From Escherichia coli (lineage in GTDB: Bacteria; Pseudomonadota; Gammaproteobacteria; Enterobacterales; Enterobacteriaceae), in assembly GCF_024502345.1 (NCBI RefSeq), contig NZ_JALDNN010000001.1: a DNA stretch of 64,000 nucleotides, one strand, 5' to 3'. Positions 22,679 through 64,000 of this stretch are shown one piece after another. The stretch's first letter is position 1. Each line of letters starts with the position of its first letter. The translations under genes and the position numbers were made by a program. Under the pieces are notes generated by a model that searched no databases, was not told where the DNA came from, and saw only the letters and a list, made by a program, of their open reading frames with translations.

Positions 22679-22754
<76 letters not shown>

Positions 22755-22789
22755 TTGGGTGGTCTGTGCCTTACAGCACTTTCAAATTT

Positions 22790-22865
<76 letters not shown>

Positions 22866-22901
22866 TTGGGTGGTCTGTGCTTTGCAGCACTTTTCAAATT
22901 T

Positions 22902-22977
<76 letters not shown>

Positions 22978-52144: not shown

Positions 52145-52220
52145 GCCCGGATAGCTCAGTCGGTAGAGCAGGGGATTGAAAATCCCCGTGTCCTTGGTTC
52201 GATTCCGAGTCCGGGCACCA
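52145..52220 (+). tRNA. pheU: tRNA-Phe (GAA)
   Basis: GCCCGGATAGCTCAGTCGGTAGAGCAGGGGATTGAAAATCCCCGTGTCCTTGGTTCGATTCCGAGTCCGGGCACCA is a 76-nt tRNA with anticodon GAA and an encoded CCA. It lies next to yjdC, as pheU does in K-12. Confidence 0.97.
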
Positions 52221-52231
52221 ATATTCATAAG

Positions 52232-52262
52232 GCCTCGCTGCAAAGCGGGGCTTTTTCCTTTT
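52232..52262 (+). terminator. tRNA-Phe terminator hairpin
   Basis: The stem GCCTCGC/GCGGGGC (one G-U pair) has a TGCAAA loop and is followed by TTTTTCCTTTT. Confidence 0.65.
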
Positions 52263-52390
52263 CTGGCTACGGTAGATTTCTGGTCGTTGCGGCACGTTAT
52301 TTGTTTGCTGGATTTCTCGCCATTTTCGCAGTTGTTCGTTACTTTTAGACACCTCAACATCCTTTGATGTACCTTTTCCTAACCTCACAG

Positions 52391-52417
52391 CTACGGTCTT
52401 TCTACGGTCCTCTACGA
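52391..52417 (+). repeat. Phased direct repeats CTACGGTC / CTACGGTC / CTACGA (10-11 bp register)
   Basis: Copies start at 52391, 52402 and 52412. A fourth copy, CTACGGTA, lies at 52267-52274. Confidence 0.6.
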
Positions 52418-52456
52418 TTCCTTTCTCTCAGAGCATTCATAATAAAGTAGAAAATA

Positions 52457-52560
52457 CGGGGAAAACGGGGGAATTATCATTTCGCCCTAATCCGCAGGTC
52501 TTAACGTGATTTTGTCGCGGGGAATAAGGTGGGGAAATCCCCAATAGCAAGCGGGGAAAT
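52457..52560 (+). repeat. Cluster of five direct CGGGGAA(A/T)-type repeats
   Basis: The copies are CGGGGAAAA at 52457, CGGGGGAATT at 52466, CGGGGAATA at 52518, TGGGGAAAT at 52530 (followed by CCCC) and CGGGGAAAT at 52552. An inverted copy AATCCCCCG lies at 52659-52667. Confidence 0.6.
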
Positions 52561-53071
52561 CTGGCAGCATACCCCCTCCACCATTCACATGGGGATCTTC
52601 ACCAGTCCGTCCACCTACAACAAGCTCTTCTTGCCCTTTCACTTCTTACCGTTTTCAGAATCCCCCGTTCTCCACGCCATCATAAAATGATTTATCCGTA
52701 AGCTTAACGTAATGGACTGTTGAACCTGAGTGTCCGCTGTGAGCGAAAAGCGGAACTTCTCACATAGGTAATGAAGCGTTTCCTAACGTCAGGGTGTACT
52801 AATCAACGAAGAGCAGGTCAGAGGACTCGAACCGCTTTCCTCTTCCATCTACGTAGAATTCCAAGAATTTATGTGCTTTCCAGTTACAATTTAGCCATGC
52901 TAAGTTAGAAAAAGCATTGAGTACCTTAGGATTGTATCGATGATACTCTAAGGATCTTGGAGGCTTGTGAGGCGTAAGGTTCAAAGCCAATAGTTTATTA
53001 ATAGTCACACAAGTGGCTCTATTTTTCGCCTACAAACCTATATTTTTCATACAAATAAAAGAAGTGTATTT

Positions 53072-54490
53072 ATGAATACTCAGCAAATTAAGGTTGGCAG
53101 TGTACCTGAAATTATTGAGCTATTACCAAACTCTAGCGAGCAGGCTGATTCTCATCCTTTCATCCTATCGGCAAACAGTGCATGGGGTGAACAGGGAGCA
53201 GAAATATCAATAGAGAGATTACGCCAAAATATCGAGCCTTGGCTAACAGCTCTCTTCCAATCCGAACATTTAAATTTATTGATAGGTGCGGGTTTAAGCA
53301 CGTCTATTCAAATATCGGCTACAGATTCACCTCCAGCTGGAATGGGTTGGATCAGCGATCTAGCCGTATGTAAAAGTGAAATAGATGCATTTTCTACTCT
53401 GGCTGCCAAAGCTGCAGGTCGCGATAACGGAAATATAGAAGATCAAATTAGAGCTATTAATGAACTTATTAAAGGGCTTGAAATTCTGACAGTGTTGAAT
53501 ACCCCTCAACCTGAAAATCCTCCAGCTCCTCATGCTGCTTATAGAAATCTAAAAACGGATTTAGAAATACTCAAGGGAGAGCTTTCTCGCTGCCTAGGTG
53601 AGTTTTCAAGATCTGTGAGTGCCGGAGAATACTTGATTAAAACTGCTGAACCAAAGCGTAAAGAGGAAACTTTCAACTATCTAGTTAGTTTCTTGATGAG
53701 CTTTGCAAGTAGGACCGCTACTCGCGATAGGTTGCATATTTTTACAACAAACTATGATCGCATTATTGAAGTAGGTGCTGAGCTTGCTGGTTTGAGACTT
53801 ATAGATCGCTTTGTAGGAAGTATCGCTCCAGTGTTTCGATCTTCAAGATTGGAGGTTGATTATCACTATAATCCTCCAGGAATTCGTGGCGAACCAAGAT
53901 ATTTAGAAGGCGTAGCGCGTTTTACTAAGCTTCATGGATCCCTTGATTGGCATGAACAAAATAGCGCGATTAGGCGCTTTGGTTTACCTTTTGGAGCACG
54001 TTCTGTTGAACCTTTTTTAGAAGCTGAAGGCCATCAAAGCAACAGCTTTGAACAACTTATGATTTACCCTAACTCAGTAAAAGATAGAGAAACTGCCGAG
54101 TACCCTTATGTTGAGCTATTTCGAGATCTAGCCGCAGCAACTAGCCGCCCAAATAGCACATTAGTCACCTATGGCTATAGCTTTGGTGATGAGCATATCA
54201 ACAGGGTAATTGAAGACATGCTTACAGTGCCTTCGACTCATGTAGTCATAATTGCCTTCGGAGATCCGCTTGGAAGAATCATAAATTTCATTAATAAGAG
54301 TGGAAGAAAAGCACAGATCACCCTATTAATGGGAGACCATTTAGGAGACCTCAAGACTTTAGTTGATAACTATTTACCTAAACCAGCTATTGATAAAGCA
54401 TCAATAAAAATGACTGAATTGCTTAAGCAAAGAGGATTTATCCAGCCCAAAGAATTAGGTAATTCAACTGGCTCCGAGGTATCACAATGA
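53072..54490 (+). CDS. SIR2-like (SIR2_2-type) NADase-family protein, first gene of a SIR2-HerA pair
   Basis: 472-aa ORF with the motifs LLIGAGLS (GAGxS Rossmann loop), FTTNYDRIIE, FTKLHGSLDW and YGYSFGDEHIN. These are characteristic of prokaryotic defence-associated SIR2 domains. Its stop overlaps the next start (ATGA at 54487-54490). Confidence 0.8.
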   Translation: MNTQQIKVGSVPEIIELLPNSSEQADSHPFILSANSAWGEQGAEISIERLRQNIEPWLTALFQSEHLNLLIGAGLSTSIQISATDSPPAGMGWISDLAVCKSEIDAFSTLAAKAAGRDNGNIEDQIRAINELIKGLEILTVLNTPQPENPPAPHAAYRNLKTDLEILKGELSRCLGEFSRSVSAGEYLIKTAEPKRKEETFNYLVSFLMSFASRTATRDRLHIFTTNYDRIIEVGAELAGLRLIDRFVGSIAPVFRSSRLEVDYHYNPPGIRGEPRYLEGVARFTKLHGSLDWHEQNSAIRRFGLPFGARSVEPFLEAEGHQSNSFEQLMIYPNSVKDRETAEYPYVELFRDLAAATSRPNSTLVTYGYSFGDEHINRVIEDMLTVPSTHVVIIAFGDPLGRIINFINKSGRKAQITLLMGDHLGDLKTLVDNYLPKPAIDKASIKMTELLKQRGFIQPKELGNSTGSEVSQ

Positions 54491-56520
54491 GTTACTTACC
54501 AATAGAAAGATTAGAACAATTAAGAATTGGATCTGTTGGATTTGTATCACCTAATGAAATTAGAGTTTCTTTAGAGATTGACTCCCCTGATTCAGTGTCA
54601 CTTCAAGGCGGTTCCCCCCGCAATTTTCCTCGAATAAATAGTTATGTACTGATCAGTAGCGATGATGGATTTCTCGTCGGACAGGTTGAATGGATTGCCG
54701 TAGAACACTCTCCATACCCCAAAAGAAGAGGCTTACAAGATTTTGGCTTGATAGATCTTCCTTTTCCACTTAAAAAGCTCAGTATCAATCCCGTTGGTAC
54801 TTTGAGAGTCGATAGAAAAAACGAAGATTACAAGTTCACAAGAGGAACAGATGCTTTTCCCTCGGTTGGTGACTCCGTGCTCCTGCCTACTGACCGGCAA
54901 TTAAAATCAATAATAGAATCAGGTGACAATAGAAGAGTAAAAATAGGGGACAGCCCCCTAGCTAACAATGCGGAAATAAAAGTGGACCCTGATAGGCTTT
55001 TTGGACGACATTTAGCTGTTTTGGGCAATACAGGTAGTGGTAAATCATGCTCGGTTGCGGGGTTAATTCAATGGTCTTTAGATGCTGTTTTACAACAGGG
55101 ACAGATTCCAAATGCTCGGTTCATAATACTTGATCCAAATGGAGAATACAGTAGGGCATTCGGCCCAGAATCAAAATACAAGGGTAAGCTATTACGTGTA
55201 GAAGCTAACACTGGTGCTGAAGAGATAGATCTTAAAGTTCCGTCATGGTTATGGAATAGCTCTGAGTGGGGTGCTTTCACTCAAGCGAGTTCAAAAGTTC
55301 AACTTCCTTTACTACGCCGAGCTTTGAGGGCGATGAGAAATGATGTTTTATCAGAAGATGATGTGACAATCCAAGCGAAACACTTCTGCGGTATCCTACT
55401 CGTATCCATACGACAATTATCAAGCCAAGGCCAGATATATGTGAATGGCGGCCATGCCAAAGGTTTCGTTGATAGTTTAACGTCTTGGAATAATAGCCTG
55501 TCCACATTAAACGACAAAATCGATAACAAACCTTTCGATAATCTAATAAACACGATGAATGTGTATCTTTCCTCTCGTATAGGAATAAAATGGCCTGAAA
55601 AACCTGAAGTTTCAGATACTGATCAGTTGATTAATGAATTAAAAAATGCATATGAAACGCTTGGAGGTGATGAACAAGGACTTCTTCCAAAAAGTGAAGA
55701 TTCGCCTATTCGTTTTAAAGGGGATGATTTTGTCGCATACCTAGAAGCTCTAGCTCAAGAGACAGGCACAGAGCAATTCGTTGAATTCCTTTTGACTCGT
55801 ATTCGAACAATGCTAGGTGACACCCGTATAAGTGCAGTAACAAATGATTCGGAACAGCCTATCAGTTTAACTAATTGGTTAGACACTTTTCTCGGTAGAG
55901 ATGGACAAGGTTCCATAACTGTTATCGATTTATCGCTAGTCCCTAATGAAATAATACATTTGGTAACTGCTGTAATTTCCAGAGTAACTTTTGAAGCATT
56001 ACAACGTTATCGAAGACTTAAGGGGAAACCACTACCAACAGTTATGGTTGCAGAAGAAGCGCATACATTTATTAAACGCTACAAAGAAGATAGTGAGGGT
56101 CAGTCAGTCTCTGACGTATGCTGCAAAGTGTTTGAAAAGATCGCACGTGAAGGCAGGAAATTTGGGTTAGGTCTTGTAGTTTCTTCCCAACGACCCTCAG
56201 AGCTATCTCCGACTGTGTTATCTCAATGTAATACTTTTTTGTTGCACAGGATTAGTAATGATAGAGATCAAGAGCAAGTCCATAGACTTGTTCCCGATAA
56301 CATGAGGGGGTTGTTGAGGGAGTTGCCATCGCTACCATCTCGGCATGCCATTCTACTAGGATGGGCTTCTGAACTTCCGGTTTTAGTTAGAATGAAAGAG
56401 CTTACTGAAAAACAAAGACCACAATCTGACGATCCCGATTTTTGGGATGTGTGGTCTAACACTACAGAAGAGCCTCGCGAAGTTAATTGGCAACCAATAG
56501 CTGATGATTGGCAAAGTTAA
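54487..56520 (+). CDS. HerA/FtsK-like (DUF87-type) ATPase, second gene of a SIR2-HerA pair
   Basis: 677-aa ORF. It has an N-terminal barrel-like segment (RIGSVGFVSPNEIRVSLE), Walker A LAVLGNTGSGKS and Walker B TVMVAEEAH. It also carries VVSSQRPSELSPTVLSQCNTFLLHRISNDRDQ, typical of HerA-clade ATPases. Confidence 0.85.
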   Translation: MSYLPIERLEQLRIGSVGFVSPNEIRVSLEIDSPDSVSLQGGSPRNFPRINSYVLISSDDGFLVGQVEWIAVEHSPYPKRRGLQDFGLIDLPFPLKKLSINPVGTLRVDRKNEDYKFTRGTDAFPSVGDSVLLPTDRQLKSIIESGDNRRVKIGDSPLANNAEIKVDPDRLFGRHLAVLGNTGSGKSCSVAGLIQWSLDAVLQQGQIPNARFIILDPNGEYSRAFGPESKYKGKLLRVEANTGAEEIDLKVPSWLWNSSEWGAFTQASSKVQLPLLRRALRAMRNDVLSEDDVTIQAKHFCGILLVSIRQLSSQGQIYVNGGHAKGFVDSLTSWNNSLSTLNDKIDNKPFDNLINTMNVYLSSRIGIKWPEKPEVSDTDQLINELKNAYETLGGDEQGLLPKSEDSPIRFKGDDFVAYLEALAQETGTEQFVEFLLTRIRTMLGDTRISAVTNDSEQPISLTNWLDTFLGRDGQGSITVIDLSLVPNEIIHLVTAVISRVTFEALQRYRRLKGKPLPTVMVAEEAHTFIKRYKEDSEGQSVSDVCCKVFEKIAREGRKFGLGLVVSSQRPSELSPTVLSQCNTFLLHRISNDRDQEQVHRLVPDNMRGLLRELPSLPSRHAILLGWASELPVLVRMKELTEKQRPQSDDPDFWDVWSNTTEEPREVNWQPIADDWQS

Positions 56521-56626
56521 TTAACTTAACTAATTTTTAGTAGTGTTATAAGTAGTGGCTTATATCTGACATGACAGTTTAGGTTAGTAGTTTCAATCTA
56601 ACAGTAAGTGTCCACGGTGACGTTTT

Positions 56627-56665
56627 CATACTCAAATCTCCTGAAATGTGGGAGATTTGAGTATG
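56627..56665. other. Perfect 15-bp-stem hairpin in the convergent intergenic region
   Basis: CATACTCAAATCTCC - TGAAATGTG - GGAGATTTGAGTATG. There is no flanking U-run on either strand. Confidence 0.6.
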
Positions 56666-56941
56666 GTTGTCCCTTATGAGCGAGGAGCGGAAGTTCTGCT
56701 TTAAGTGTATCAAACCCTCCAGCAAAGATGTTCTTGAATGTAATGCCATAATTTCCCTAACATTCCAGCACAAATCAATTAACTCTCAGTCCATAGTGTA
56801 TTTTACTTAAATTAAAATCAAATACTCTAGGAATTAAAATAACAAGATCACTTGCGATTATGCTATTTTAAATTAATATTTTTGTTTTTACTGGGGAACC
56901 TTCAAAACACGGAGCCAGATTTCTTCGTAGCTACCCTGTTG

Positions 56942-57766
56942 CTAGGGTTTCAAGTATTCCCCTAAAGGAAAGAAATTTTTTGACAACTTTTGGGATTCAG
57001 CAATTTTAACCAAATAAATATAGAATCCCAACAGAGCACTGTTCTCGCTTTCCCCCCTCGAATAGTGAACATGCCCAGGCACCTTCCGGATGAGGAAACC
57101 ATTATTTTTTACCAAATAATACCCTCTATCTAAAATTGTAATTACATCAGGCATATCATCTAAATCGATATTATTTCCAGTCATGTAATTAAACAGCGAA
57201 TCTCGTAAGGTACTTTCCTCTGGACCTTGGAAGGCTAGTAGTAAGAATGGTGTTTTTCTCAAGGTTGCACACATCCCTGAGATTTCCTCTACTAATTGCA
57301 CTGTATTTTGGGGAATATTTTCTTTCATAAAATAACCATCGTCAATACCGATTGGATTGATTCTTACCAAACCTTTTGACCTAACGCAAGCATCTAAGGT
57401 TGTCTTAAGGTTTGAAGCTCCTTCGGTCATTGAGCCAGTGTTTAATGAAGATTTACATTCAATTAACGCTAAAGCTGAATCGACAGGGACCATACACTGA
57501 TCTTTATCATAACTAAGTTTTAAAGAATGTTTCGAGTATATGATAATATCCATCTGACTTGAGAGATTATCCTTAGAGTCAAAAACCTGTCCTGATGTAA
57601 TATCTAAATTACTAGGGAGATTTGCTTTTAAAAATTCCCTTATTACAATTTCTCTAGCACTTCCTTTGCTACTCCCGTTCGTCGTTATGGATGACAAATT
57701 AAATGCTGAAACCAAAGATGCCGTATGGTTTTTTAAGTGTTTCTGGATTAATTTCATAAAGCTCAT
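56942..57766 (-). CDS. Hypothetical protein with an N-terminal PD-(D/E)xK-like nuclease motif (reminiscent of DUF6602, from memory)
   Basis: 274-aa ORF in AT-rich DNA. It contains SKGSAREIVIREFLKANLP...SGQVFDSKDNLSSQMDIIIY...ALALIECKSSL, giving E39/E44, D73 and E103-x-K105 in the order expected for restriction-endonuclease-fold enzymes. The C-terminal half has no motif I recognise. Confidence 0.6.
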   Translation of the reverse strand: MSFMKLIQKHLKNHTASLVSAFNLSSITTNGSSKGSAREIVIREFLKANLPSNLDITSGQVFDSKDNLSSQMDIIIYSKHSLKLSYDKDQCMVPVDSALALIECKSSLNTGSMTEGASNLKTTLDACVRSKGLVRINPIGIDDGYFMKENIPQNTVQLVEEISGMCATLRKTPFLLLAFQGPEESTLRDSLFNYMTGNNIDLDDMPDVITILDRGYYLVKNNGFLIRKVPGHVHYSRGESENSALLGFYIYLVKIAESQKLSKNFFPLGEYLKP

Positions 57767-58194
57767 TCCATTTTAATTTATCTACATCGCTTAAAGGCAA
57801 ATGATGCCACCGGCTACCAATTAAAAATTATCTCAACCTGAGAGATTTTTCCAGACTCCAAACGAAAATAAAAAACTACTCGTCACGTCCCTCCTGGCAC
57901 ATAGCCGACACCAAAACCAGCAACATATGGACAACGGTCCCTGCCCTGATGGCAGGTAATTGTATCAGACTTAAACACATATTATTTCTGTGAACTCCCC
58001 CCAACGGCAGTCCTTTCCTCTGAAGACCAGAACCAGACCGTAAAGCCTGCTCTTTCTGCATTTCCCGTATTAATTCATACCATGTGGCACCAGCATTCCC
58101 TTCGCCACACCAGAAAATCAATTCCCCAATAAAAAAGTGCCGTGCCGGGGATGGGTCAACCCTGACGTTCTTTACACCAGTCACAGGAGGTTAT

Positions 58195-59379
58195 ATGTCC
58201 ACCCCCAAACGCTTCCGTTTTACTAATCAGCTCATTAAATCCCTGCCCCCTAACACATCCGATGCACGCAGTACCGATGCCGAATACAGCGACACCGAGA
58301 TTTCCGGCCTCAAGTGTCTGGTCAGCAGAAGAGAAGGTCGTAAAAAGTTTTTGCTACGCTACCTTTATCATGGACGAAAACGCGCCATCGCCATTGGTCA
58401 CTGGCCTGAAGTGGACGTCAATCTTGCTCGTCAGATTGCCATAGAACACAAACGTTCCCTTGCCACCGGCACTGACCCTAAGCAGGAGCGTGAAAACAAG
58501 AGAATGGAGCTGACGTTCGATGAACTCTTTAATCAGCATTATCTGCCATGGGCAAAATCCGCTAAACGCAGTTGGGGAAAGGATGTTCAGCGCTACCGCG
58601 ATCATATCCGTCCCGCCATTGGTCAGAGGCTGCTGAGCGATATCACACCAGCGAGCATTCTGCGCCTTCAGCAGACGTTAAGTACTTCCCTGTCAGCAGC
58701 TACCTGTAACCGTGTCATCGTACTCATTAAAGCCGTCTTTACATGGGCCGGAAGGCAAAGCATGACCTCTGTCCATCCGGCAAGGGTGGTACAGCTTCTC
58801 AGGGAGAACAACGCCCGACAGCGCTATTTCACCGAGGACGAAATTCGTCGTATTTTTCTCTCCGCCGATAACGATACCAGCCCCGTCGCGGCCCGCTATG
58901 TCAAACTGTTGTTACTGACCGGCCTTCGTCGTGATGAGCTGCGTCTGGCTAAGTGGGAGCATGTTGACCCGGTTAAACGCACCCTGTGGCTCCCGGAAAC
59001 CAAGAATGGCTATGGGCGGATTGTTCACCTTAACTCACTGGCGATGGACGTAATCAGAACGCTGCCAACGCAGCGGGGAAATCCGTGGTTGTTTATCGGT
59101 AAAAAACAAGGAATGCCGCTGAATAACCCCGTTAAAGCCTTTCAGCGTATCGTTCGTCGGGCGGGAATTTTCGACCAGGAAGTGTGTATTCATACCTGCC
59201 GCCATTCGGTTGCCGCCCTCATCGTGTCCTACGGCGGAACACTGTATGACGTTCAGGCTCAACTGGGGCACCGCAGCAGTCAGTCTTCACAACGTTATGC
59301 GCATCTTCACCCTCAGCGCTTACAAAACACCAGTCAGTTACTGGCGGAAAGGATAACGGCTCAGCTACCGTCCTTGTGA
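58195..59379 (+). CDS. Tyrosine-type site-specific integrase (int1)
   Basis: ORF 58084..59379 trimmed to the ATG at 58195, preceded by AGGAGG (MSTPKRFRFTNQLIKSLPPN..., 394 aa). It has an N-terminal arm-binding-like segment (IAIGHWPEVDVNLARQIA). The catalytic signature is TGLRRDEL, HTCRHS, LGHRS and RYAH. Confidence 0.88.
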   Translation: MSTPKRFRFTNQLIKSLPPNTSDARSTDAEYSDTEISGLKCLVSRREGRKKFLLRYLYHGRKRAIAIGHWPEVDVNLARQIAIEHKRSLATGTDPKQERENKRMELTFDELFNQHYLPWAKSAKRSWGKDVQRYRDHIRPAIGQRLLSDITPASILRLQQTLSTSLSAATCNRVIVLIKAVFTWAGRQSMTSVHPARVVQLLRENNARQRYFTEDEIRRIFLSADNDTSPVAARYVKLLLLTGLRRDELRLAKWEHVDPVKRTLWLPETKNGYGRIVHLNSLAMDVIRTLPTQRGNPWLFIGKKQGMPLNNPVKAFQRIVRRAGIFDQEVCIHTCRHSVAALIVSYGGTLYDVQAQLGHRSSQSSQRYAHLHPQRLQNTSQLLAERITAQLPSL

Positions 59380-59388
59380 TAACAGAAA

Positions 59389-59419
59389 AGCAGAGGCAAG
59401 TGCCCCTGCTTTTTTTTTA
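59389..59419. terminator. Hairpin terminator shared by int1 (+) and the 118-aa gene (-)
   Basis: The stem AGCAGAGG/CCCCTGCT (one mismatch) is followed by nine T on the plus strand, with a weaker UUUCUGU on the minus strand. Confidence 0.65.
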
Positions 59420-59434
59420 CTGTTCAGCCATCAG

Positions 59435-59791
59435 TCAGAACGGGATGGCCCCATATTCTTCATCCGGCACCCGGTTATCATCAAATCTGTTATAGAGTTC
59501 ACGAGCACACTCGCGCGCGTCTTTAATAGACATACGAGGGAACCTGCCGAGGGGTTCATAATAGCAGGCCCCTTCAAGCGTATAACGAGCCAGGAATTTA
59601 ATCTCACCGTTGGCAATGACGGCCCGGAGCGCAGGCTCGCTGCCATCGAAGATTTCACGAGAAATGCCGTGATAAAGGCACTCCGCCAGTGTGTTAACCA
59701 GAGCGTAATCATTGAATGAGGTTTTTTCTTCATTTTCGCTGCTGATAGCGTGAGGAAAACCGTCATAGTACTGGTCTGATTCAAAAATCAT
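59435..59791 (-). CDS. Small protein carrying a stand-alone integrase N-terminal (DUF4102-like arm-binding) domain
   Basis: 118-aa ORF with an AAGGTG Shine-Dalgarno 5-10 nt upstream of the ATG. GEIKFLARYTLEGACYYEPLGRFPRMSIKDARECARELYNRF aligns by eye with int2 GRIKFIVRKSIRGKNIYVAVGGYPEISIKDAREHAFKIIQEL. Confidence 0.7.
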   Translation of the reverse strand: MIFESDQYYDGFPHAISSENEEKTSFNDYALVNTLAECLYHGISREIFDGSEPALRAVIANGEIKFLARYTLEGACYYEPLGRFPRMSIKDARECARELYNRFDDNRVPDEEYGAIPF

Positions 59792-59840
59792 ACATCACCT
59801 TCTATTGGTTGTTATTCAGTCAAAATGGTTTTATTCAGGG

Positions 59841-61769
59841 TTAAAATTCGGTCATCACATTGCATTTCAGAAACGCTTTTTTGACCTGGTAGTAAGACTG
59901 CGCCATCGTCTTCAGCGCTCTTTTTTTATAGTGTCCGGCACTTTCGCCAAGCAGATAACCGGAACGCTCTAACGGTCTGGCCACATCAACGGTCTTAAGT
60001 CCCTTTTCAGAACAGAGCTTTTCAAACACCGATTCATAAATCAGGAAGTCGCCGGTTTTGTAATGGACGAATCCCCACATATCTCCCGGGCATCGGGCAT
60101 GTTCGTCACGCAGGGTGATAAAGTGCCTGCTGCTTTTTGTCACCAGCGTCAGCTGAAGCTCCTCCAGCATGTTACGCACCGGGTTATACTGATTCTGGTT
60201 ATCATCCAGCCAGCGTCGTGCAGCGGACATAACGGATTCAGCCACCGCATCGCTTTCGAAAGGTAAAAGGCCATATTTCAGCGCCTTCTCTCCTGCCAGC
60301 CATACCAGCGCAAATCTTTTCAGTCCGCGCCGCTGAACGCGGGTAATATCACGCCCCTCATCCCTCAGGGCCTCTTCCAGTGCGTTACAGCAATCATCTG
60401 TCTGTTCCTGGAGCCAGGATGAAAACTCTGCGTAGGTGCGAAGACCGCCAGCCGTATTTTTCCCGGATAACAGTTTGCCGATAAATGCAGGCCCGGCATG
60501 ACCATAAGCCTCTGCCAGCCCCGTCTTCAGTGCATCTGCACGGGCACGTGTTTCTGATACCGGTTCATCCGGTTTTTGAGCATCCTCAGGCAACAGTTCC
60601 ATACTGATGGCCCTGTGCTCCTGCCCTCCCTGTAACACGGCTTTCTGTTCAGCCAGCTTTTCGGAGATTGACATCTCACCGGTGGAGAGAATAAACATGC
60701 GCCATTTAAACGGCTCATCTGCCGTCAGGCCACGGTTCAGGCGCTCTTTTGCCGTACCTGACGTAATGTTGTAAAGCAGTGAGGAAAGTTGCTTATGATT
60801 ACTCGCACCCAGTTCATCGACGCAGGCGACCAGACCGGAATAGTCAGCGAGAAGGCGCTCCATCGCGTTAGGCGTGGTATTCCAGCGAATAATATTTACA
60901 TTCCCCCCACTACCCGGCTCGCTGCCATCACCATGGACCGATGCAGCCAGCATCAGGAGAAGCGTTTTACCGGTGGTGGATACGCCGTGAAAATGAAACA
61001 TGCCCACATCCATACCGGCAGGAACCAGAAGCATCGAAGCAAAGGACGCACTCAGTGCAAAGGTCTGCGCCCAGCCATGGACATTTTCCCGGATGAGGTT
61101 AATCCACTCCTCCAGGGCCCCACCTTTGTGCAGTCCGGGACGCACGCGGAATCCCGGCAGTAGATAATCAAACCCGGTCAGAGAGGTCACAACGGGCTCA
61201 TGACCATGTAAAAAGGCCATATCCTCCGAAACGAATCCCATCGCATCTGCCATCAGATAGACAGGCAGCGGTAAACTCCGGCAGCGCTGAAGAAAACGGT
61301 CAAAAAGGGCAAACTGCTGTGGAGAGGAGCCAACACAAAATCCACGATCTGCCAGTTTGCCTACTACCTGAGCACCGCTCTGAACAATATCCTCAAAGCG
61401 TACCAGGGCCTTAACATACTTACCCAGCCCGTTACCGGTCATCAGGCTGATCCCAAGACCGGACTCCTTATCTTTTCCACAAAACAGGGCGACAGGCACA
61501 ACTGGCGTGGTGCAAACCTGCACAGGTTTCTGTCCACCGATGTAGAAAAGGCCATTAGCCGTATTCACATAATGCCGTGGCAGCCCATCACCAATACCGA
61601 GTGAAGCGATATCATCTTCACCGACCTCAGTGTTTTCAGCACGCCTGATAATTGCTTCCGACATTTTGTTGAAATTTTTATCGCGGTCAGCAAAAGCGCG
61701 AATACGCTTAATCCCGGAAACCTTAGGAACATTAGTTGTCACTTTTTTATTCATGTGTATTACCATCAA
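59841..61769 (-). CDS. DUF927-like P-loop helicase / replication initiator of a mobile element (start codon uncertain)
   Basis: 642-aa ORF. Its N-terminal region (NGLFYIGGQKPVQVCTTPVVPVALFCGKDKESGLGISL...) resembles DUF927 as I recall it. Walker A is HGVSTTGKT and Walker B is LVACVDELG. The alternative start MNKKVTT lies 5 codons in. Confidence 0.7.
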   Translation of the reverse strand: MMVIHMNKKVTTNVPKVSGIKRIRAFADRDKNFNKMSEAIIRRAENTEVGEDDIASLGIGDGLPRHYVNTANGLFYIGGQKPVQVCTTPVVPVALFCGKDKESGLGISLMTGNGLGKYVKALVRFEDIVQSGAQVVGKLADRGFCVGSSPQQFALFDRFLQRCRSLPLPVYLMADAMGFVSEDMAFLHGHEPVVTSLTGFDYLLPGFRVRPGLHKGGALEEWINLIRENVHGWAQTFALSASFASMLLVPAGMDVGMFHFHGVSTTGKTLLLMLAASVHGDGSEPGSGGNVNIIRWNTTPNAMERLLADYSGLVACVDELGASNHKQLSSLLYNITSGTAKERLNRGLTADEPFKWRMFILSTGEMSISEKLAEQKAVLQGGQEHRAISMELLPEDAQKPDEPVSETRARADALKTGLAEAYGHAGPAFIGKLLSGKNTAGGLRTYAEFSSWLQEQTDDCCNALEEALRDEGRDITRVQRRGLKRFALVWLAGEKALKYGLLPFESDAVAESVMSAARRWLDDNQNQYNPVRNMLEELQLTLVTKSSRHFITLRDEHARCPGDMWGFVHYKTGDFLIYESVFEKLCSEKGLKTVDVARPLERSGYLLGESAGHYKKRALKTMAQSYYQVKKAFLKCNVMTEF

Positions 61770-61838
61770 ATTACGCCACCGTCAGAAAACGGGTGCATCA
61801 GAACCATAGTTAAAAACCATACCGTTGAGTGAAGGTTG

Positions 61839-63251
61839 TTACCCCATCGCCCGGTTAACGACTTCGTGGTAACGCGCCGGGGAAGCGTGCAAGTAAAGCT
61901 CCGTTACTTTGATAGTGCTGTGACCCAATAAGTCTTTGACGGTGTGAATGTCGGCCCCGCTCTCAATGAGCTTTGTCGCAAAGGTATGACGCATCTCATG
62001 GATGGTGAACGGTGGAATACCCGCAGCCTCACAAAGTCGTTTTTGCAGGCGACGCGGCTCAGCAACCGGATTGTCGGTTCCCTTGCCCGGAAATACCCAG
62101 CCTTCATCACCCAGATGCTGACGCTGTTCTGTCAGAAGAACGAAAGCCTTATCACATACCGGTACACGGCGTAGTTTGCCGTTTTTGGTATGGCGAAGGG
62201 TGATAACCTTGCGGCTCCAGTCCACATCTTCAAGACGAAGGTGACGGGTTTCCCCCAGACGCAGCCCCGTCAGGGCAAGGAACATGAGAAGAGCAAGGGC
62301 TTCATGATCGGGTTTACCATTACGCCAGCGCTCACAGACGTCCATCCAGCGCTGAAGCTGGGAGTCATCCATGGCACGGCGATCTGACGTCACTTCAGGC
62401 AGCGCTTTGATATAAAGCGCCGGAGAGCGGCTGATGTATCCCATGCGTATAGCCCAGGTAAACACCGCTTTAATGAGCGCCAGATGGCGGTTGCGGGTGG
62501 CAGGCTTGAGATCGAGATTATGCAGATAGCTCAGAATATCTGCCTCCGTCATACCTGCCAGCTTTTTGTCACCGAGAAGAGGGCGCAGGTATTTACGGAT
62601 CTTAGAAAGGTCGGTGTTAGCTGAACGCTTAACGCCCGTGCTGAGTACGCTTTTCTCATACTCATCCACAAGCTCATTAAACGTCATTTTACTGTGAGTA
62701 AGAAAACGCTCACCGTAAGCCTCAACGGCGGTCTTGAGCTCCTGAATTATTTTAAAGGCATGCTCCCTTGCATCTTTAATTGAAATTTCCGGGTAGCCTC
62801 CTACGGCAACGTAGATATTCTTTCCGCGAATACTTTTGCGGACAATAAATTTAATGCGACCTGATGGATAGAATATTGCCTTAAGTCCGGTTAACTTCTT
62901 ATCGCTGGTCTCGATTGTTTGTGCAGCTTGTACTGCACGGATTTTATATTCATCAAAAAGGGCTTTAGTAAAAACACCTCCAGTATTTTTAGGTGCAACC
63001 CCTGGATATTCTACAACATCAGATACTCCAGAGTCGGAATACCCCTGAGCTTCCACATCTACATTGAAGGAATTTTTATGAGCAGCTGTGATGCTCTTTT
63101 CATCCAGCACTTGCGTTATTTTATTTAAAGGGTAATTAACTTTCATAATATGTACATGGTCCTCTGAAAATTCAGATGATAATGAGTAATTTAATATGTC
63201 GGCCAACAATGGGATAAGCTTATTTATTCGTGGCATCACTTTCAAGCCCAT
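61839..63251 (-). CDS. Tyrosine-type site-specific integrase (int2), with a long N-terminal extension
   Basis: 470-aa ORF. It has an arm-binding segment (VAVGGYPEISIKDAREHA) and a catalytic signature of TGLRLGETRHL, HEMRHTFAT, LLGHSTIKVTELYLH. The start codon is uncertain because no clear Shine-Dalgarno is visible. Confidence 0.85.
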   Translation of the reverse strand: MGLKVMPRINKLIPLLADILNYSLSSEFSEDHVHIMKVNYPLNKITQVLDEKSITAAHKNSFNVDVEAQGYSDSGVSDVVEYPGVAPKNTGGVFTKALFDEYKIRAVQAAQTIETSDKKLTGLKAIFYPSGRIKFIVRKSIRGKNIYVAVGGYPEISIKDAREHAFKIIQELKTAVEAYGERFLTHSKMTFNELVDEYEKSVLSTGVKRSANTDLSKIRKYLRPLLGDKKLAGMTEADILSYLHNLDLKPATRNRHLALIKAVFTWAIRMGYISRSPALYIKALPEVTSDRRAMDDSQLQRWMDVCERWRNGKPDHEALALLMFLALTGLRLGETRHLRLEDVDWSRKVITLRHTKNGKLRRVPVCDKAFVLLTEQRQHLGDEGWVFPGKGTDNPVAEPRRLQKRLCEAAGIPPFTIHEMRHTFATKLIESGADIHTVKDLLGHSTIKVTELYLHASPARYHEVVNRAMG

Positions 63252-63423: not shown

Positions 63424-64000
63424 GGCTTTGTTGAATAAATCAGATTTCGGGTAAGTCTCCCCCGTAGCGGGTTGTGTTTTCAGGCAATACGCACGCTTTC
63501 AGGCATACCTGCTTTCGTCATTTTGTTCAGCGCTCGTACCAGGGCCATAGCCTCCGCAACCTGACCATCGTAGTCACGCAGCGTCAGTGAACCCCCGAAC
63601 AGCTGTTTTACCCGGTACATCGCCGTTTCCGCTATCGAGCGACGGTTGTAATCTGTTGTCCATTTCCACCGCGCATTACGCTGATTAGCCACTGCACGGT
63701 TACGGTCTGCATATTCACCGGGCCAGTAACCCGCACCTTTTCGGGGAGGGATAAGCGCGCTGATTTTCTTACGCCGCAGTTCATCGTGACAGAGCCGGGT
63801 GTCGTAAGCGCCGTCTGCCGATGCTGCCCTGATTTTTCTGTGAGTCTGCCGGATAAGACCCGGGAAGGCTTCTGAGTCCGTCACATTGTTCAGCGACAGG
63901 TCAGCGCAGATGATTTCATGTGTTTTACTGTCAACGGCGAGATGCAGCTTACGCCAGATACGGCGGCGTTCCTGGCCATGCTTTTTGACTTTCCACTCGC
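63424..64000. mobile_element. IS903-like element (IS5 family), truncated by the window edge
   Basis: The terminal inverted repeat GGCTTTGTTGAATAAATC starts at 63424, followed by the transposase C-terminus on the minus strand. Confidence 0.85.
63480..64000 (-). CDS. IS903-family DDE transposase (C-terminal part; N-terminus outside the window)
   Basis: The frame stays open to the window edge. It translates ...RRRIWRKLHLAVDSKTHEIICADLSLNNVTDSEAFPGLIRQTHRKIRAASADGAYDTRLCHDELRRKKISALIPPRKGAGYW...AGMPESVRIA, matching IS903/IS102 transposase as I recall it. Confidence 0.85.
   Translation of the reverse strand, partial: EWKVKKHGQERRRIWRKLHLAVDSKTHEIICADLSLNNVTDSEAFPGLIRQTHRKIRAASADGAYDTRLCHDELRRKKISALIPPRKGAGYWPGEYADRNRAVANQRNARWKWTTDYNRRSIAETAMYRVKQLFGGSLTLRDYDGQVAEAMALVRALNKMTKAGMPESVRIA

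What the first reader, a model, noticed from the sequence alone, without database searches (positions are those of the whole stretch)
53072..56520. Translationally coupled SIR2-like / HerA-like ATPase operon: an anti-phage SIR2-HerA system in the pheU island
Two AT-rich genes overlap by ATGA (54487-54490).
- Gene 1 has the defence-type SIR2 motif set: GAGLS, TTNYD, KLHGS and YGYSFGDEHI.
- Gene 2 has a HerA-clade ATPase layout: an N-terminal barrel-like segment, Walker A GNTGSGKS, Walker B MVAEEAH and the SSQRPSE...LHRISN block.

SIR2+HerA pairs are an experimentally supported NAD+-depleting abortive-infection class, described as SIR2-HerA or Nezha. I recall the class name Gao_Her in defence-annotation tools. 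This is the clearest functional system in the accessory DNA and the anchor for judging its neighbours. The class itself is not novel, but this allele and its context may be.
Basis: partly seen in the sequence, partly recalled or inferred. Interest (0 to 1): 0.75.

Follow-up and report, generated by a model that had tools for sequence, protein, structure and literature searches.

The report
SIR2-HerA anti-phage operon at pheU
This is an intact two-gene SIR2-HerA anti-phage system of a known, widespread class, sitting in a swappable cargo slot of a mobile element at the pheU tRNA gene; it is correctly identified but not new.

Summary
Two co-oriented ORFs, 53072-54490 (472 aa) and 54487-56520 (677 aa), overlap by ATGA. 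They have 41% G+C against 52% in the core genome, and every quoted motif is present.

The PADLOC models for SIR2 (E=2.7e-154) and HerA (E=2e-252) match along nearly their full length. The catalytic Asn227, Asp229 and His288 align with solved SIR2-HerA structures and are conserved in 60 homologs. The 39 closest solved structures to the SIR2 model are all SIR2 subunits of SIR2-HerA complexes.

It is not Nezha in the strict sense. Identity to Nezha is about 20%, and scores fall far below the NCBIfam equivalog cut-offs. It belongs to a distinct, widespread subtype. HerA copies that are 97-100% identical occur in Citrobacter, Salmonella and E. coli, so the allele is not new.

Only 19 of 5,426 complete E. 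coli genomes carry this subtype, and only 2 carry it at pheU.

The operon lies between tRNA-Phe and the integrase of a DUF927-helicase element. That slot holds different, often defensive, cargo in other strains.

The neighbouring DUF6602 nuclease is an independent gene, not a third component.

Function (abortive infection by NAD+ depletion) is inferred by homology only.

The parts
52145..52220 (+). tRNA-Phe (GAA), the pheU copy. It is the attachment site and left boundary of the island.
   Evidence: ARAGORN; Rfam tRNA at 68.3 bits. It follows dsbD-dicD in the annotated near-identical locus.
52221..52755 (.). Conserved non-coding left-end segment of the integrative element, presumably the att arm. 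It is shared by islands that carry different cargo.
   Evidence: 88-95% identical in L002, L003 and L004, after which similarity stops at 52753-52759. Present at least in part in 202 of 5,426 E. coli genomes. No Rfam family matches.
52760..53071 (+). Upstream region of the cassette, where the promoter is presumed to lie. The promoter was not located.
   Evidence: Window 52732-56602 is 94% identical to a C. koseri chromosomal copy, apart from a gap near 52820 (an 87-bp indel), whereas the P2-prophage and ICE copies share only from about 53030. The sigma-70 scan found no + strand site here, and counts over the whole region were at shuffle level.
53072..54490 (+). sir2, a defence-type SIR2_2 NADase of 472 aa. 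The Rossmann Gly motif GAGLS is at residues 72-76. The catalytic residues are N227, D229 and H288 (codons 53750-53752, 53756-53758, 53933-53935).
   Evidence: PADLOC E=2.7e-154; Pfam SIR2_2; PDB 8j4u_A E=2.5e-21 with the motifs aligned. N227 and H288 are invariant and D229 is at least 90% conserved in 60 homologs. The AF2 model has pLDDT 79.7, and its 39 best Foldseek hits are SIR2 chains of SIR2-HerA complexes.
54487..54490 (+). ATGA stop/start overlap, consistent with translational coupling of sir2 and herA.
   Evidence: The sequence is read directly. The same 4-nt overlap occurs in the XH1815 ICE copy and in Thermanaerovibrio velox. The P2-prophage copy has a 2-nt gap instead.
54487..56520 (+). 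herA, a HerA/FtsK-clade ATPase of 677 aa. The N-terminal part is beta-rich (about residues 1-130). Walker A is at 180-187 (K186), the conserved LDPNGEY motif contains D216, a helical insertion spans about 258-468, Walker B is at 520-526 (E523, E524), and R569 lies in SSQRPSE.
   Evidence: PADLOC E=2e-252; Pfam DUF87. PDB 8wiv_A scores E=2.7e-50 in two stretches, residues 14-261 and 459-660. Invariant residues come from 61 homologs. The best Foldseek hits are all defence-type HerAs, but the model is weak at pLDDT 58.5.
56627..56665 (.). Perfect 15-bp inverted repeat with a 9-nt loop, lying between the convergent herA and DUF6602 genes. It may be a bidirectional terminator, but this is unproven.
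   Evidence: the repeat finder pair I3, 100% complementary. There is no T-run, and the terminator scan did not call it.
56942..57766 (-). Neighbouring cargo gene that is not part of the system: a DUF6602 / PD-(D/E)xK nuclease of 274 aa with a NucC-like N-terminal half.
   Evidence: Pfam DUF6602 E=6.9e-21; PADLOC PD_DExK E=5.8e-27 and NucC E=7.5e-14; PDB NucC 7zgv E=9e-7. The genes after herA in other loci are unrelated to it. In strain cS33a it is replaced by IS903B.
58195..59379 (+). Tyrosine integrase of the element (394 aa as annotated elsewhere). It marks the right edge of the cargo slot.
   Evidence: Pfam Phage_integrase, Arm-DNA-bind_3 and Phage_int_M. Gene calls and annotation come from L007 and L001. 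Similarity to islands with other cargo resumes at 57932-58023.
59435..63251 (-). Element backbone: a small Arm-DNA-binding-like protein (59435-59791), a DUF927/Cch-like helicase (59841-61769) and a second tyrosine recombinase (61839-63251).
   Evidence: Pfam; NCBIfam SCCmec Cch1-like E=2.2e-22. The same gene order is found in 10 sampled E. coli loci at pheU or pheV.

Best explanation
Window 53072-56520 encodes an intact two-gene SIR2-HerA anti-phage system of the class called Gao_Her_SIR, SIR2-HerA or Nezha-like. It belongs to a subtype distinct from the structurally characterised ones.

Shown here:
- The genes, their tight coupling, their family membership, their intact catalytic residues and the conservation of the pair across phyla.
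- The location: a horizontally acquired, low-G+C cargo cassette between the tRNA-Phe (pheU) attachment arm and the integrase of a small integrative element.

Inferred from homologous systems:
- SIR2 forms a two-layered ring (12-14 subunits) that docks on a HerA hexamer.
- In uninfected cells the NADase is held off by autoinhibition and by ATP.
- Phage infection activates the complex. In other subtypes the triggers are phage SSB-type proteins, DNA ends and falling ATP.
- SIR2 (N227, D229, H288) then hydrolyses NAD+.
- HerA (K186, E523, E524, R569, possibly D216) supplies ATPase and DNA-directed activities.
- The infected cell arrests before phage progeny are made (abortive infection).

Which gating logic applies is unknown. 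It could be Nezha-like (helicase/nuclease) or type-III-like (nickase).
For: Family membership:
- Near-full-length PADLOC matches: SIR2 2.7e-154, HerA 2e-252.
- Pfam SIR2_2 and DUF87, both above gathering score.
- Sequence matches to solved SIR2-HerA complexes, with TTNYD and KLHGS aligned.

Conservation:
- N227 and H288 are invariant in 60 SIR2 homologs at 55-89% identity.
- The Walker A residues, D216, E523, E524 and R569 are invariant in 61 HerA homologs.

Fold:
- The SIR2 model (pLDDT 79.7, pTM 0.80) has SIR2 chains of SIR2-HerA complexes as its top 39 Foldseek hits, with TM 0.33-0.62. SPARSA and the sirtuins come only after these.
- The best hits of the HerA model are all defence-type HerAs.

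Pairing and context:
- The sir2-herA pair, with overlapping or abutting ORFs, recurs in unrelated contexts. These are a P2-like prophage hotspot, an ICE, the C. koseri chromosome, and a type I R-M operon in Thermanaerovibrio.
- The cassette has foreign composition.
- The same slot holds known defence genes in other strains.

Mechanism, from the literature:
[quoted passage not shown] Other E. coli subtypes are active Abi systems (PMC13434337).
- SIR2 forms a dodecamer or tetradecamer with a HerA hexamer, and the catalytic N/D/H residues are needed (PMC11472057).
- HerA allosterically activates Sir2 (PMC11514289).
- Sir2 active-site mutants and a herA deletion abolish defence in V. cholerae (PMC11559045).
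Against: No experiment exists for this subtype that I could identify.

Identity to every characterised system is only about 17-23%. NCBIfam anti-phage equivalog scores are far below their cut-offs: 123.6 against 500, and 229.5 against 850. Trigger, stoichiometry and gating may therefore differ.

In the E. coli survey, four of the eight Sir2-HerA clusters are not reported among the systems with robust activity against the 110-phage panel (PMC13434337). I could not tell which cluster this one is.

No convincing promoter was found. The HerA model is of low confidence.
Confidence: 0.88

Rival explanations
1. The unit is a three-gene system in which the convergent DUF6602 (NucC-like) nuclease at 56942-57766 is an effector working with SIR2-HerA.
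For: The nuclease lies 421 bp after herA inside the same low-G+C variable segment. Every public contig that carries this exact nuclease also carries the SIR2-HerA pair. An endonuclease gene also follows herA in the XH1815 ICE and in the V. cholerae GI-23 island.
Against: The genes that follow herA in other contexts are not homologous to it. XH1815 has Endonuclease_1, C. koseri has a 341-aa protein with no Pfam family, and the P2 copy has no such gene.

The shared cassette ends at about 56570-56600, before the nuclease.

Strains cS33a and fM51a keep sir2-herA but have IS903B in place of the nuclease.

A 52% identical homolog in Motilimonas has no SIR2- or HerA-sized ORF nearby.

A DUF6602 protein named Damona is reported as a single-gene defence.

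The two are transcribed convergently.
Confidence: 0.05
2. The pair is a housekeeping module rather than an immune system: a HerA DNA-repair or translocase ATPase with a sirtuin-type protein deacetylase.
For: HerA also matches archaeal repair HerA (NCBIfam NF040819 E=4e-35; PDB 4d2i E=6.5e-22). SIR2 is distantly related to sirtuins (Foldseek E about 1e-3).
Against: No gene matching NurA was seen among the neighbours scanned.

Defence-type models and structures score far better than repair HerA or the sirtuins.

The operon is rare, present in 19 of 5,426 complete E. coli genomes. It is mobile and always found in prophage, ICE, island or R-M contexts.
Confidence: 0.02
3. It is the same class but with a different gating. 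The subtype would work like the E. coli 'type III' Sir2-HerA rather than like Nezha. In that scheme a phage SSB or Gp5.9-like trigger unlocks a HerA nickase, the resulting DNA ends drive ATP consumption, and this relieves ATP inhibition of the NADase. Nezha instead uses helicase and nuclease activities.
For: The invariant D216 in LDPNGEY may correspond to the type III nickase residue D218; I could not test this correspondence. The subtype is as far from Nezha (about 20% identity) as types I-III are reported to be (13-22%).
Against: The type III numbering (Sir2 N238, HerA D218) does not match N227 and D216 with a single consistent offset. The motif containing D216 is also conserved in Paenibacillus HerA, so it does not discriminate between the two schemes.
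Confidence: 0.3
4. The genes are intact, but the system is silent or inactive in this host, as a recently acquired passenger.
For: No recognisable promoter lies upstream. Four of eight E. coli Sir2-HerA clusters are not reported among the systems with robust activity in a heterologous test.
Against: Both ORFs are intact and all catalytic residues are present. Purifying selection is evident across phyla, with 55-89% identity and more than 100 invariant SIR2 columns. Near-identical copies are maintained in several genera.
Confidence: 0.12

Closest known systems
E. coli SIR2-HerA / Nezha (WP_021577683.1 and WP_021577682.1; PDB 8J4U, 8SU9, 8SUB, 8UAE)
   Same: It has the same two-gene sir2-herA architecture. 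The SIR2_2 NADase aligns at TTNYD and KLHGS. HerA has the same Walker A, Walker B and Arg motifs. It is the best structural match for the SIR2 model, with TM 0.5-0.6.
   Different: Identity is only about 20-21%. SIR2 is 472 aa here against 415, with an extra beta-rich N-terminus (residues 1-45). HerA is 677 aa against 610. NCBIfam equivalog scores are well below their cut-offs. HMMER aligns only SIR2 residues 195-411.
Paenibacillus sp. 453MF SIR2-HerA (PDB 8WLD, 8WIV, 8W9L; PMC11472057)
   Same: It is the best sequence match for HerA (E=2.7e-50). The match covers both the N-terminal barrel with Walker A and the Walker B to C-terminal parts. HerA is of similar size (696 aa) and has the same four-part layout: barrel, split RecA domain, helical insertion and C-terminal arm. 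Its ORFs overlap.
   Different: Its SIR2 is a much weaker match (E=7.5e-9; 381 aa). The helical insertion, residues 262-458 here, does not align at sequence level.
Staphylococcus aureus SaSir2-HerA (PDB 8YHX, 8YHO; PMC11514289)
   Same: It belongs to the same class. Its SIR2 aligns over residues 191-401 with the catalytic motifs matched (E=3.6e-15). The reported mechanism is allosteric activation of Sir2 by HerA.
   Different: Identity is about 17-20%, and its HerA is shorter (562 aa).
E. coli Sir2-HerA types I-III (PMC13434337, NAR 2026)
   Same: These are non-Nezha E. coli Sir2-HerA clusters at 13-22% identity to Nezha, shown to be abortive-infection systems. This operon is also a non-Nezha cluster found in E. 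coli, and it may be one of the eight clusters in that survey.
   Different: It cannot be assigned because no sequences are held. The type III catalytic numbering (Sir2 N238, HerA D218) differs from N227 and D216 here.
DUF4297-HerA (PDB 8XAV, 8ZIQ, 9C1M)
   Same: Its HerA is as similar to this one as the SIR2-partnered HerAs are: E=1e-44 to 1e-48 by sequence, and it gives the top Foldseek hit.
   Different: The partner effector there is DUF4297, not SIR2. Here the partner is unambiguously SIR2.

Membership tests
SIR2-HerA defence class (Gao_Her_SIR / PADLOC SIR2-HerA) | An SIR2_2-family protein with the NADase catalytic Asn, Asp and His | tested here: met
   PADLOC SIR2 E=2.7e-154 and Pfam SIR2_2 at 33.4 bits against a cut-off of 24.5. 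N227, D229 and H288 align with TTNYD and KLHGS of 8j4u and 8yhx. They are conserved in 60 homologs.
SIR2-HerA defence class (Gao_Her_SIR / PADLOC SIR2-HerA) | A HerA/FtsK-clade ATPase with Walker A, Walker B and a conserved Arg | tested here: met
   PADLOC HerA E=2e-252 and Pfam DUF87 at 75.7 bits. G180-S187, E523, E524 and R569 are invariant. Ten PDB HerA-type sequences match.
SIR2-HerA defence class (Gao_Her_SIR / PADLOC SIR2-HerA) | HerA domain layout: N-terminal beta-barrel, split RecA core, helical insertion and C-terminal arm | tested here: inconclusive
   Residues 14-261 align to residues 14-238 of 8wiv, which include its barrel (1-132). Residues 459-660 align to the second RecA half and the arm. 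The model's secondary structure agrees: beta strands at 18-119 and helices at 258-468. However, pLDDT is only 58.5.
SIR2-HerA defence class (Gao_Her_SIR / PADLOC SIR2-HerA) | Adjacent, co-oriented sir2 then herA forming one operon | tested here: met
   A 4-nt ATGA overlap. The same order and coupling occur in 5 independent genomic contexts.
SIR2-HerA defence class (Gao_Her_SIR / PADLOC SIR2-HerA) | Fold of SIR2 closest to the SIR2 subunits of solved SIR2-HerA complexes | tested here: met
   Foldseek against the PDB: ranks 1-39 are 8suw, 8sub, 8su9, 8uae, 8j4u, 8sxx, 8yhx, 8wld, 8w9l and 8woc, with E down to 6e-16.
SIR2-HerA defence class (Gao_Her_SIR / PADLOC SIR2-HerA) | Supramolecular complex of an SIR2 12/14-mer with a HerA hexamer | not testable with these tools
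   No multimer prediction or biochemistry is available here.
SIR2-HerA defence class (Gao_Her_SIR / PADLOC SIR2-HerA) | Phage protection with NAD+ depletion that depends on the SIR2 active site and on HerA | not testable with these tools
   This needs experiment. It has been shown only for other subtypes.
Nezha sensu stricto (NCBIfam equivalogs NF042942 SIR2_antiphage, NF042943/NF042944 HerA_antiphage) | Score at or above the curated equivalog cut-off | tested here: not met
   SIR2 scores 123.6 bits against 500. HerA scores 229.5 against 850 and 198.8 against 800. Full-length identity to 8j4u/8su9 chains is about 20%.
E. coli type III Sir2-HerA (PMC13434337) | Sequence membership of the type III cluster (Sir2 N238, HerA nickase D218) | tested here: inconclusive
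   No sequences or supplements are held. The residue numbers differ (N227 and D216) without a single offset.
DUF4297-HerA (Gao_Her_DUF) | HerA paired with a DUF4297 effector | tested here: not met
   The partner is SIR2. No match to DUF4297 appears for either neighbouring gene.
HerA-NurA DNA-end resection module | An adjacent NurA nuclease, in a housekeeping (core-genome) location | tested here: not met
   The neighbours are SIR2 and a DUF6602 nuclease. The operon is in 19 of 5,426 E. coli genomes, and always on mobile elements.
Damona single-gene defence (applies to the neighbouring gene 56942-57766 only) | A DUF6602 domain that also matches the Cas PD_DExK and CBASS endonuclease profiles | tested here: met
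   Pfam DUF6602 E=6.9e-21; PADLOC PD_DExK 5.8e-27; NucC/Effector 7.5e-14 and 2.3e-15. The description comes from the preprint. Direct homology to the Damona protein could not be tested because its sequence is not held.

The most novel reading that the evidence does not exclude
The segment between the tRNA-Phe attachment arm and the integrase of this two-integrase, DUF927-helicase integrative element may be a dedicated, recombination-driven defence-cargo hotspot. It would be comparable to the P2 and P4 hotspots but lie on a so far unclassified satellite-like element that uses both pheU and pheV. Its uncharacterised cargos would then be candidate new defence genes: the 152-325 aa hypothetical proteins, and the DUF3825 protein with its partner. 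Separately, this SIR2-HerA subtype may use a trigger and gating different from Nezha. Its SIR2 has an extra beta-rich N-terminus and an invariant loop at residues 248-279 that the model could not place with confidence.
Probability: 0.35. Interest if true: 0.45.

Novelty: already known. Interest (0 to 1): 0.2.

Why it matters
For annotation, this is a dependable anchor. The low-G+C segment from about 52760 to 57930 is defence cargo on a mobile element at pheU. RefSeq names the two proteins only 'SIR2 family protein' and 'ATP-binding protein', because the NCBIfam anti-phage equivalogs do not reach this subtype.

Biologically, the subtype is widespread across phyla and moves between P2-like prophages, ICEs, genomic islands and R-M operons. 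Even so, I could not find a structure or a direct experiment for it. It would be a reasonable next representative for work on how Sir2-HerA subtypes differ in trigger and gating.

The slot it occupies offers a small, cheap source of candidate defence genes.

Tried and rejected
1. Three-gene system including the DUF6602 nuclease. Rejected: the genes following herA in other loci are not homologous, the cassette ends before the nuclease, and IS903B replaces it in cS33a.

2. Tandem islands, with a second copy of the tRNA-Phe 3' end before the integrase. No second copy exists in the window, even allowing 3 mismatches.

3. Recombination sites at the slot edges. The only candidate is inverted repeat I1 (52785-52804 / 58150-58169), which has an 11-nt perfect core. 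By my own estimate, (6000^2/2)/4^11 gives about 4 such matches by chance in 6 kb. I treated it as noise.

4. A non-coding RNA in the 850-bp tRNA-to-sir2 spacer. Rfam at E<=1 finds only the tRNA.

5. Promoter and terminator mapping. Counts equal the shuffle expectation, and no + strand promoter was found upstream of sir2.

6. The 69-aa reverse ORF at 52799-53008. It is only loosely conserved, its end is altered by an 87-bp indel in C. koseri, and no gene caller calls it. I did not treat it as a gene.

7. Equating this system with V. cholerae classical-biotype Nezha because of an 88% identical V. cholerae homolog. Rejected: A103 Sir2 has its active site at N168/H227, so it is a different protein.

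8. Assigning the operon to type I, II or III of PMC13434337. Not possible, because no sequences or supplements are held.

9. HerA structure prediction. The model has pLDDT 58.5, so I used it only for secondary structure and for the family of its best hits.

10. Shen et al. 2023 (PMC11418745) is not held.

Full report
OBSERVATION

The junction reads ATCACAATGAGTTAC, so the stop of the first gene and the start of the second overlap as ATGA at 54487-54490. Both genes have 40.7% G+C, against 52.0% for window 1-52000.

Every quoted motif is present:
- SIR2: GAGLS 72-76, TTNYD 225-229, KLHGS 286-290, YGYSFGDEHI 367-376.
- HerA: GNTGSGKS 180-187, MVAEEAH 520-526, SSQRPSE 566-572, LHRISN 586-591.

tRNA-Phe(GAA) lies at 52145-52220. 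It follows dsbD-dicD(yjdC), as annotated in a 99.9% identical RefSeq locus. That makes it the pheU copy, because the pheV copy follows yqgA.

FAMILY ASSIGNMENT

Profile matches:
- PADLOC SIR2 model PDLC04079: E=2.7e-154 over residues 43-460.
- PADLOC HerA model PDLC04098: E=2e-252 over residues 5-676.
- Pfam SIR2_2 and DUF87, both above gathering score.

Against solved structures by sequence, SIR2 matches the E. coli Nezha SIR2 (8j4u/8su9, E=2.5e-21), the S. aureus SIR2 (8yhx, 3.6e-15) and the Paenibacillus SIR2 (8w9l, 7.5e-9). TTNYD and KLHGS align column for column. HerA matches the Paenibacillus HerA (8wiv, 2.7e-50), the HerAs of DUF4297-HerA systems, and Nezha HerA (1.8e-36). The match falls in two stretches, residues 14-261 and 459-660. 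Mapped on the published Paenibacillus domain boundaries, these correspond to the barrel with the first RecA half, and the second RecA half with the arm. They flank a helical insertion that does not align.

In an alignment of 60 SIR2 homologs (55-89% identity), G72, G74, N227 and H288 are invariant, and D229 is at least 90% conserved. In 61 HerA homologs, G180-S187, D216, E523, E524 and R569 are invariant.

The AlphaFold2 model of SIR2 has pLDDT 79.7 and pTM 0.80. Its 39 best Foldseek hits in the PDB are all SIR2 subunits of SIR2-HerA assemblies. SPARSA SIR2 and the sirtuins come only after these. The HerA model is poor (pLDDT 58.5). Its secondary structure still fits the expected layout, and its best hits are all defence-type HerAs.

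WHICH SIR2-HerA?

This is not Nezha in the narrow sense. Full-length identity to the solved systems is about 17-23%. The NCBIfam anti-phage equivalogs score far below their cut-offs: 123.6 against 500 for SIR2, and 229.5 against 850 for HerA. This explains why RefSeq calls the proteins only 'SIR2 family protein' and 'ATP-binding protein'.

A 2026 survey split the E. coli Sir2-HerA systems into eight clusters (PMC13434337). It found robust activity for Nezha and for three further types (I-III) that are 13-22% identical to Nezha. This operon is as far from Nezha as those types are, and it may be one of the eight clusters. I could not assign it, because no sequences are held. The type III residue numbers (Sir2 N238, HerA D218) differ from N227 and D216 here.

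V. cholerae classical-biotype Nezha (active site N168/H227) is also a different protein, even though V. cholerae also has an 88% identical homolog of this SIR2.

DISTRIBUTION

The allele is not new.
- The exact SIR2 protein is on public contigs.
- HerA copies at 97-100% identity occur in Citrobacter, Salmonella and E. coli. Copies at 88-95% occur in Vibrio, Proteus, Providencia, Shewanella, Edwardsiella and others.
- SIR2 homologs at 55-60% identity reach Synergistota, Bacillota and other phyla.

Among 5,426 complete E. coli genomes, 19 carry this subtype. Two carry it at pheU at 99.9% identity, and 17 carry copies at 82-86% identity. Of the three copies inspected, one lies between ogr and the tail genes of a P2-like prophage, and two lie next to conjugation (tra) genes in an ICE-like region. 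Four plasmid or ICE records from Proteus and Vibrio carry it, and no sequenced phage record does.

In Thermanaerovibrio velox the pair sits inside a type I R-M operon, in the order hsdM-sir2-herA-hsdS-fic-hsdR. A pair that is conserved, tightly coupled and carried on mobile elements next to other defence genes is what is expected of a defence module.

CONTEXT

The operon is cargo of an integrative element, laid out as follows:
- tRNA-Phe.
- A conserved 535-bp left-end segment, 52221-52755.
- A variable segment, about 52760-57930.
- The integrase, 58195-59379.
- A small Arm-DNA-binding-like protein.
- A DUF927/Cch-like helicase.
- A second tyrosine recombinase.

The backbone occurs in 133 of 5,426 E. 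coli genomes, at pheU or pheV. In the sampled loci the same slot holds different cargo:
- an anti-phage dCTP deaminase (PADLOC dCTPase, 5.6e-149);
- a restriction endonuclease with DUF2971 (PADLOC candidate PDC-S31);
- a restriction endonuclease with an IS;
- a restriction endonuclease with ADH and LysR genes;
- DUF3825 with a hypothetical protein;
- a single small hypothetical protein.

No second tRNA-Phe 3' end and no convincing repeats mark the slot.

THE THIRD GENE

ORF 56942-57766 (-) is a DUF6602 / PD-(D/E)xK nuclease with a NucC-like N-terminal half. It is not a conserved partner of SIR2-HerA, for these reasons:
- The genes after herA elsewhere are unrelated to it.
- The cassette shared across contexts ends at about 56570-56600.
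- IS903B replaces it in strain cS33a, and apparently also in fM51a.
- A 52% identical homolog in Motilimonas stands without SIR2-HerA.

A preprint describes a DUF6602 protein named 'Damona' as a single-gene defence with the same profile matches. The gene is therefore probably a second, independent defence gene in the same slot.

MECHANISM

Shown here: gene structure, coupling, family membership, intact and conserved catalytic residues, and a mobile defence context.

Inferred from homologs:
- An SIR2 ring docks on a HerA hexamer.
- The NADase is autoinhibited and checked by ATP.
- Infection activates it.
- NAD+ is hydrolysed and the cell arrests (PMC11472057, PMC11514289, PMC13434337, PMC11559045).

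The trigger is unknown. It is also unknown whether HerA contributes helicase and nuclease activity, as in Nezha, or a nickase, as in type III.

VERDICT

The finding is correct and well described. It is a member of a known class, and identical or near-identical sequences are already public. Interest is low.

The least ordinary aspects are two. First, I could find no experiment or structure for this widespread subtype. Second, the tRNA-to-integrase slot behaves like a small defence-cargo hotspot.

Noticed in passing
window 52221-58194, compared with L002, L003, L004 and L022-L025: The segment between the conserved 535-bp stretch after tRNA-Phe and the integrase is a swappable cargo slot. Other E. 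coli strains carry there a dCTP deaminase, restriction endonucleases, DUF2971 (PADLOC PDC-S31), DUF3825 with a hypothetical protein, or one small hypothetical protein. The same element uses both pheU and pheV.
   Followed up: partly
window 56942-57766 (-): A stand-alone DUF6602 / NucC-like PD-(D/E)xK nuclease of 274 aa with 35.9% G+C. It resembles the 'Damona' single-gene defence described in a Vibrio integron preprint. In E. coli cS33a, and apparently also fM51a, a 1,058-bp IS903B replaces exactly this gene (window 56915-57794).
   Followed up: partly
window 58195-63251: The element backbone has two tyrosine recombinases in opposite orientation, flanking a small Arm-DNA-binding-like protein and a DUF927 helicase. 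The helicase resembles the SCCmec Cch replicative helicase (NCBIfam E=2.2e-22; HTH_56). No phage or conjugation genes are visible, so how the element moves is unclear. The window ends before attR.
   Followed up: partly
SIR2 residues 248-279 (window 53813-53908): This is the most conserved stretch of the SIR2 subfamily, with many invariant residues (R256, S258-L260, D263, Y266-G270, G273-V281). It is also the only long region the AlphaFold model could not place (pLDDT below 50). It may become ordered only in the oligomer, or on binding HerA or a ligand.
   Followed up: no
L010 1-13410 (Thermanaerovibrio velox): A 59% identical sir2-herA pair is embedded with overlapping ORFs inside a type I R-M operon, in the order hsdM-sir2-herA-hsdS-fic/RhuM-hsdR. 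A BrxC/PglY-like gene lies upstream.
   Followed up: no
window 52732-52830, compared with L008 7574-7760: The C. koseri chromosomal copy of the cassette shares sequence starting about 25 bp inside the conserved island left-end segment. It has an 87-bp insertion at window position ~52820. This boundary may mark a recombination junction.
   Followed up: no
window 56627-56665: A perfect 15-bp inverted repeat with a 9-nt loop lies between the convergent herA and DUF6602 genes, just outside the cassette shared with other contexts.
   Followed up: no
window 63480-63884 (-): A truncated DDE_Tnp_1 transposase ORF of 134 aa lies near the end of the window. It indicates IS activity within the island.
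   Followed up: no
window 22679-22977 (-): Three tandem tRNA-Gly(GCC) genes, an ordinary core-genome tRNA cluster.
   Followed up: no
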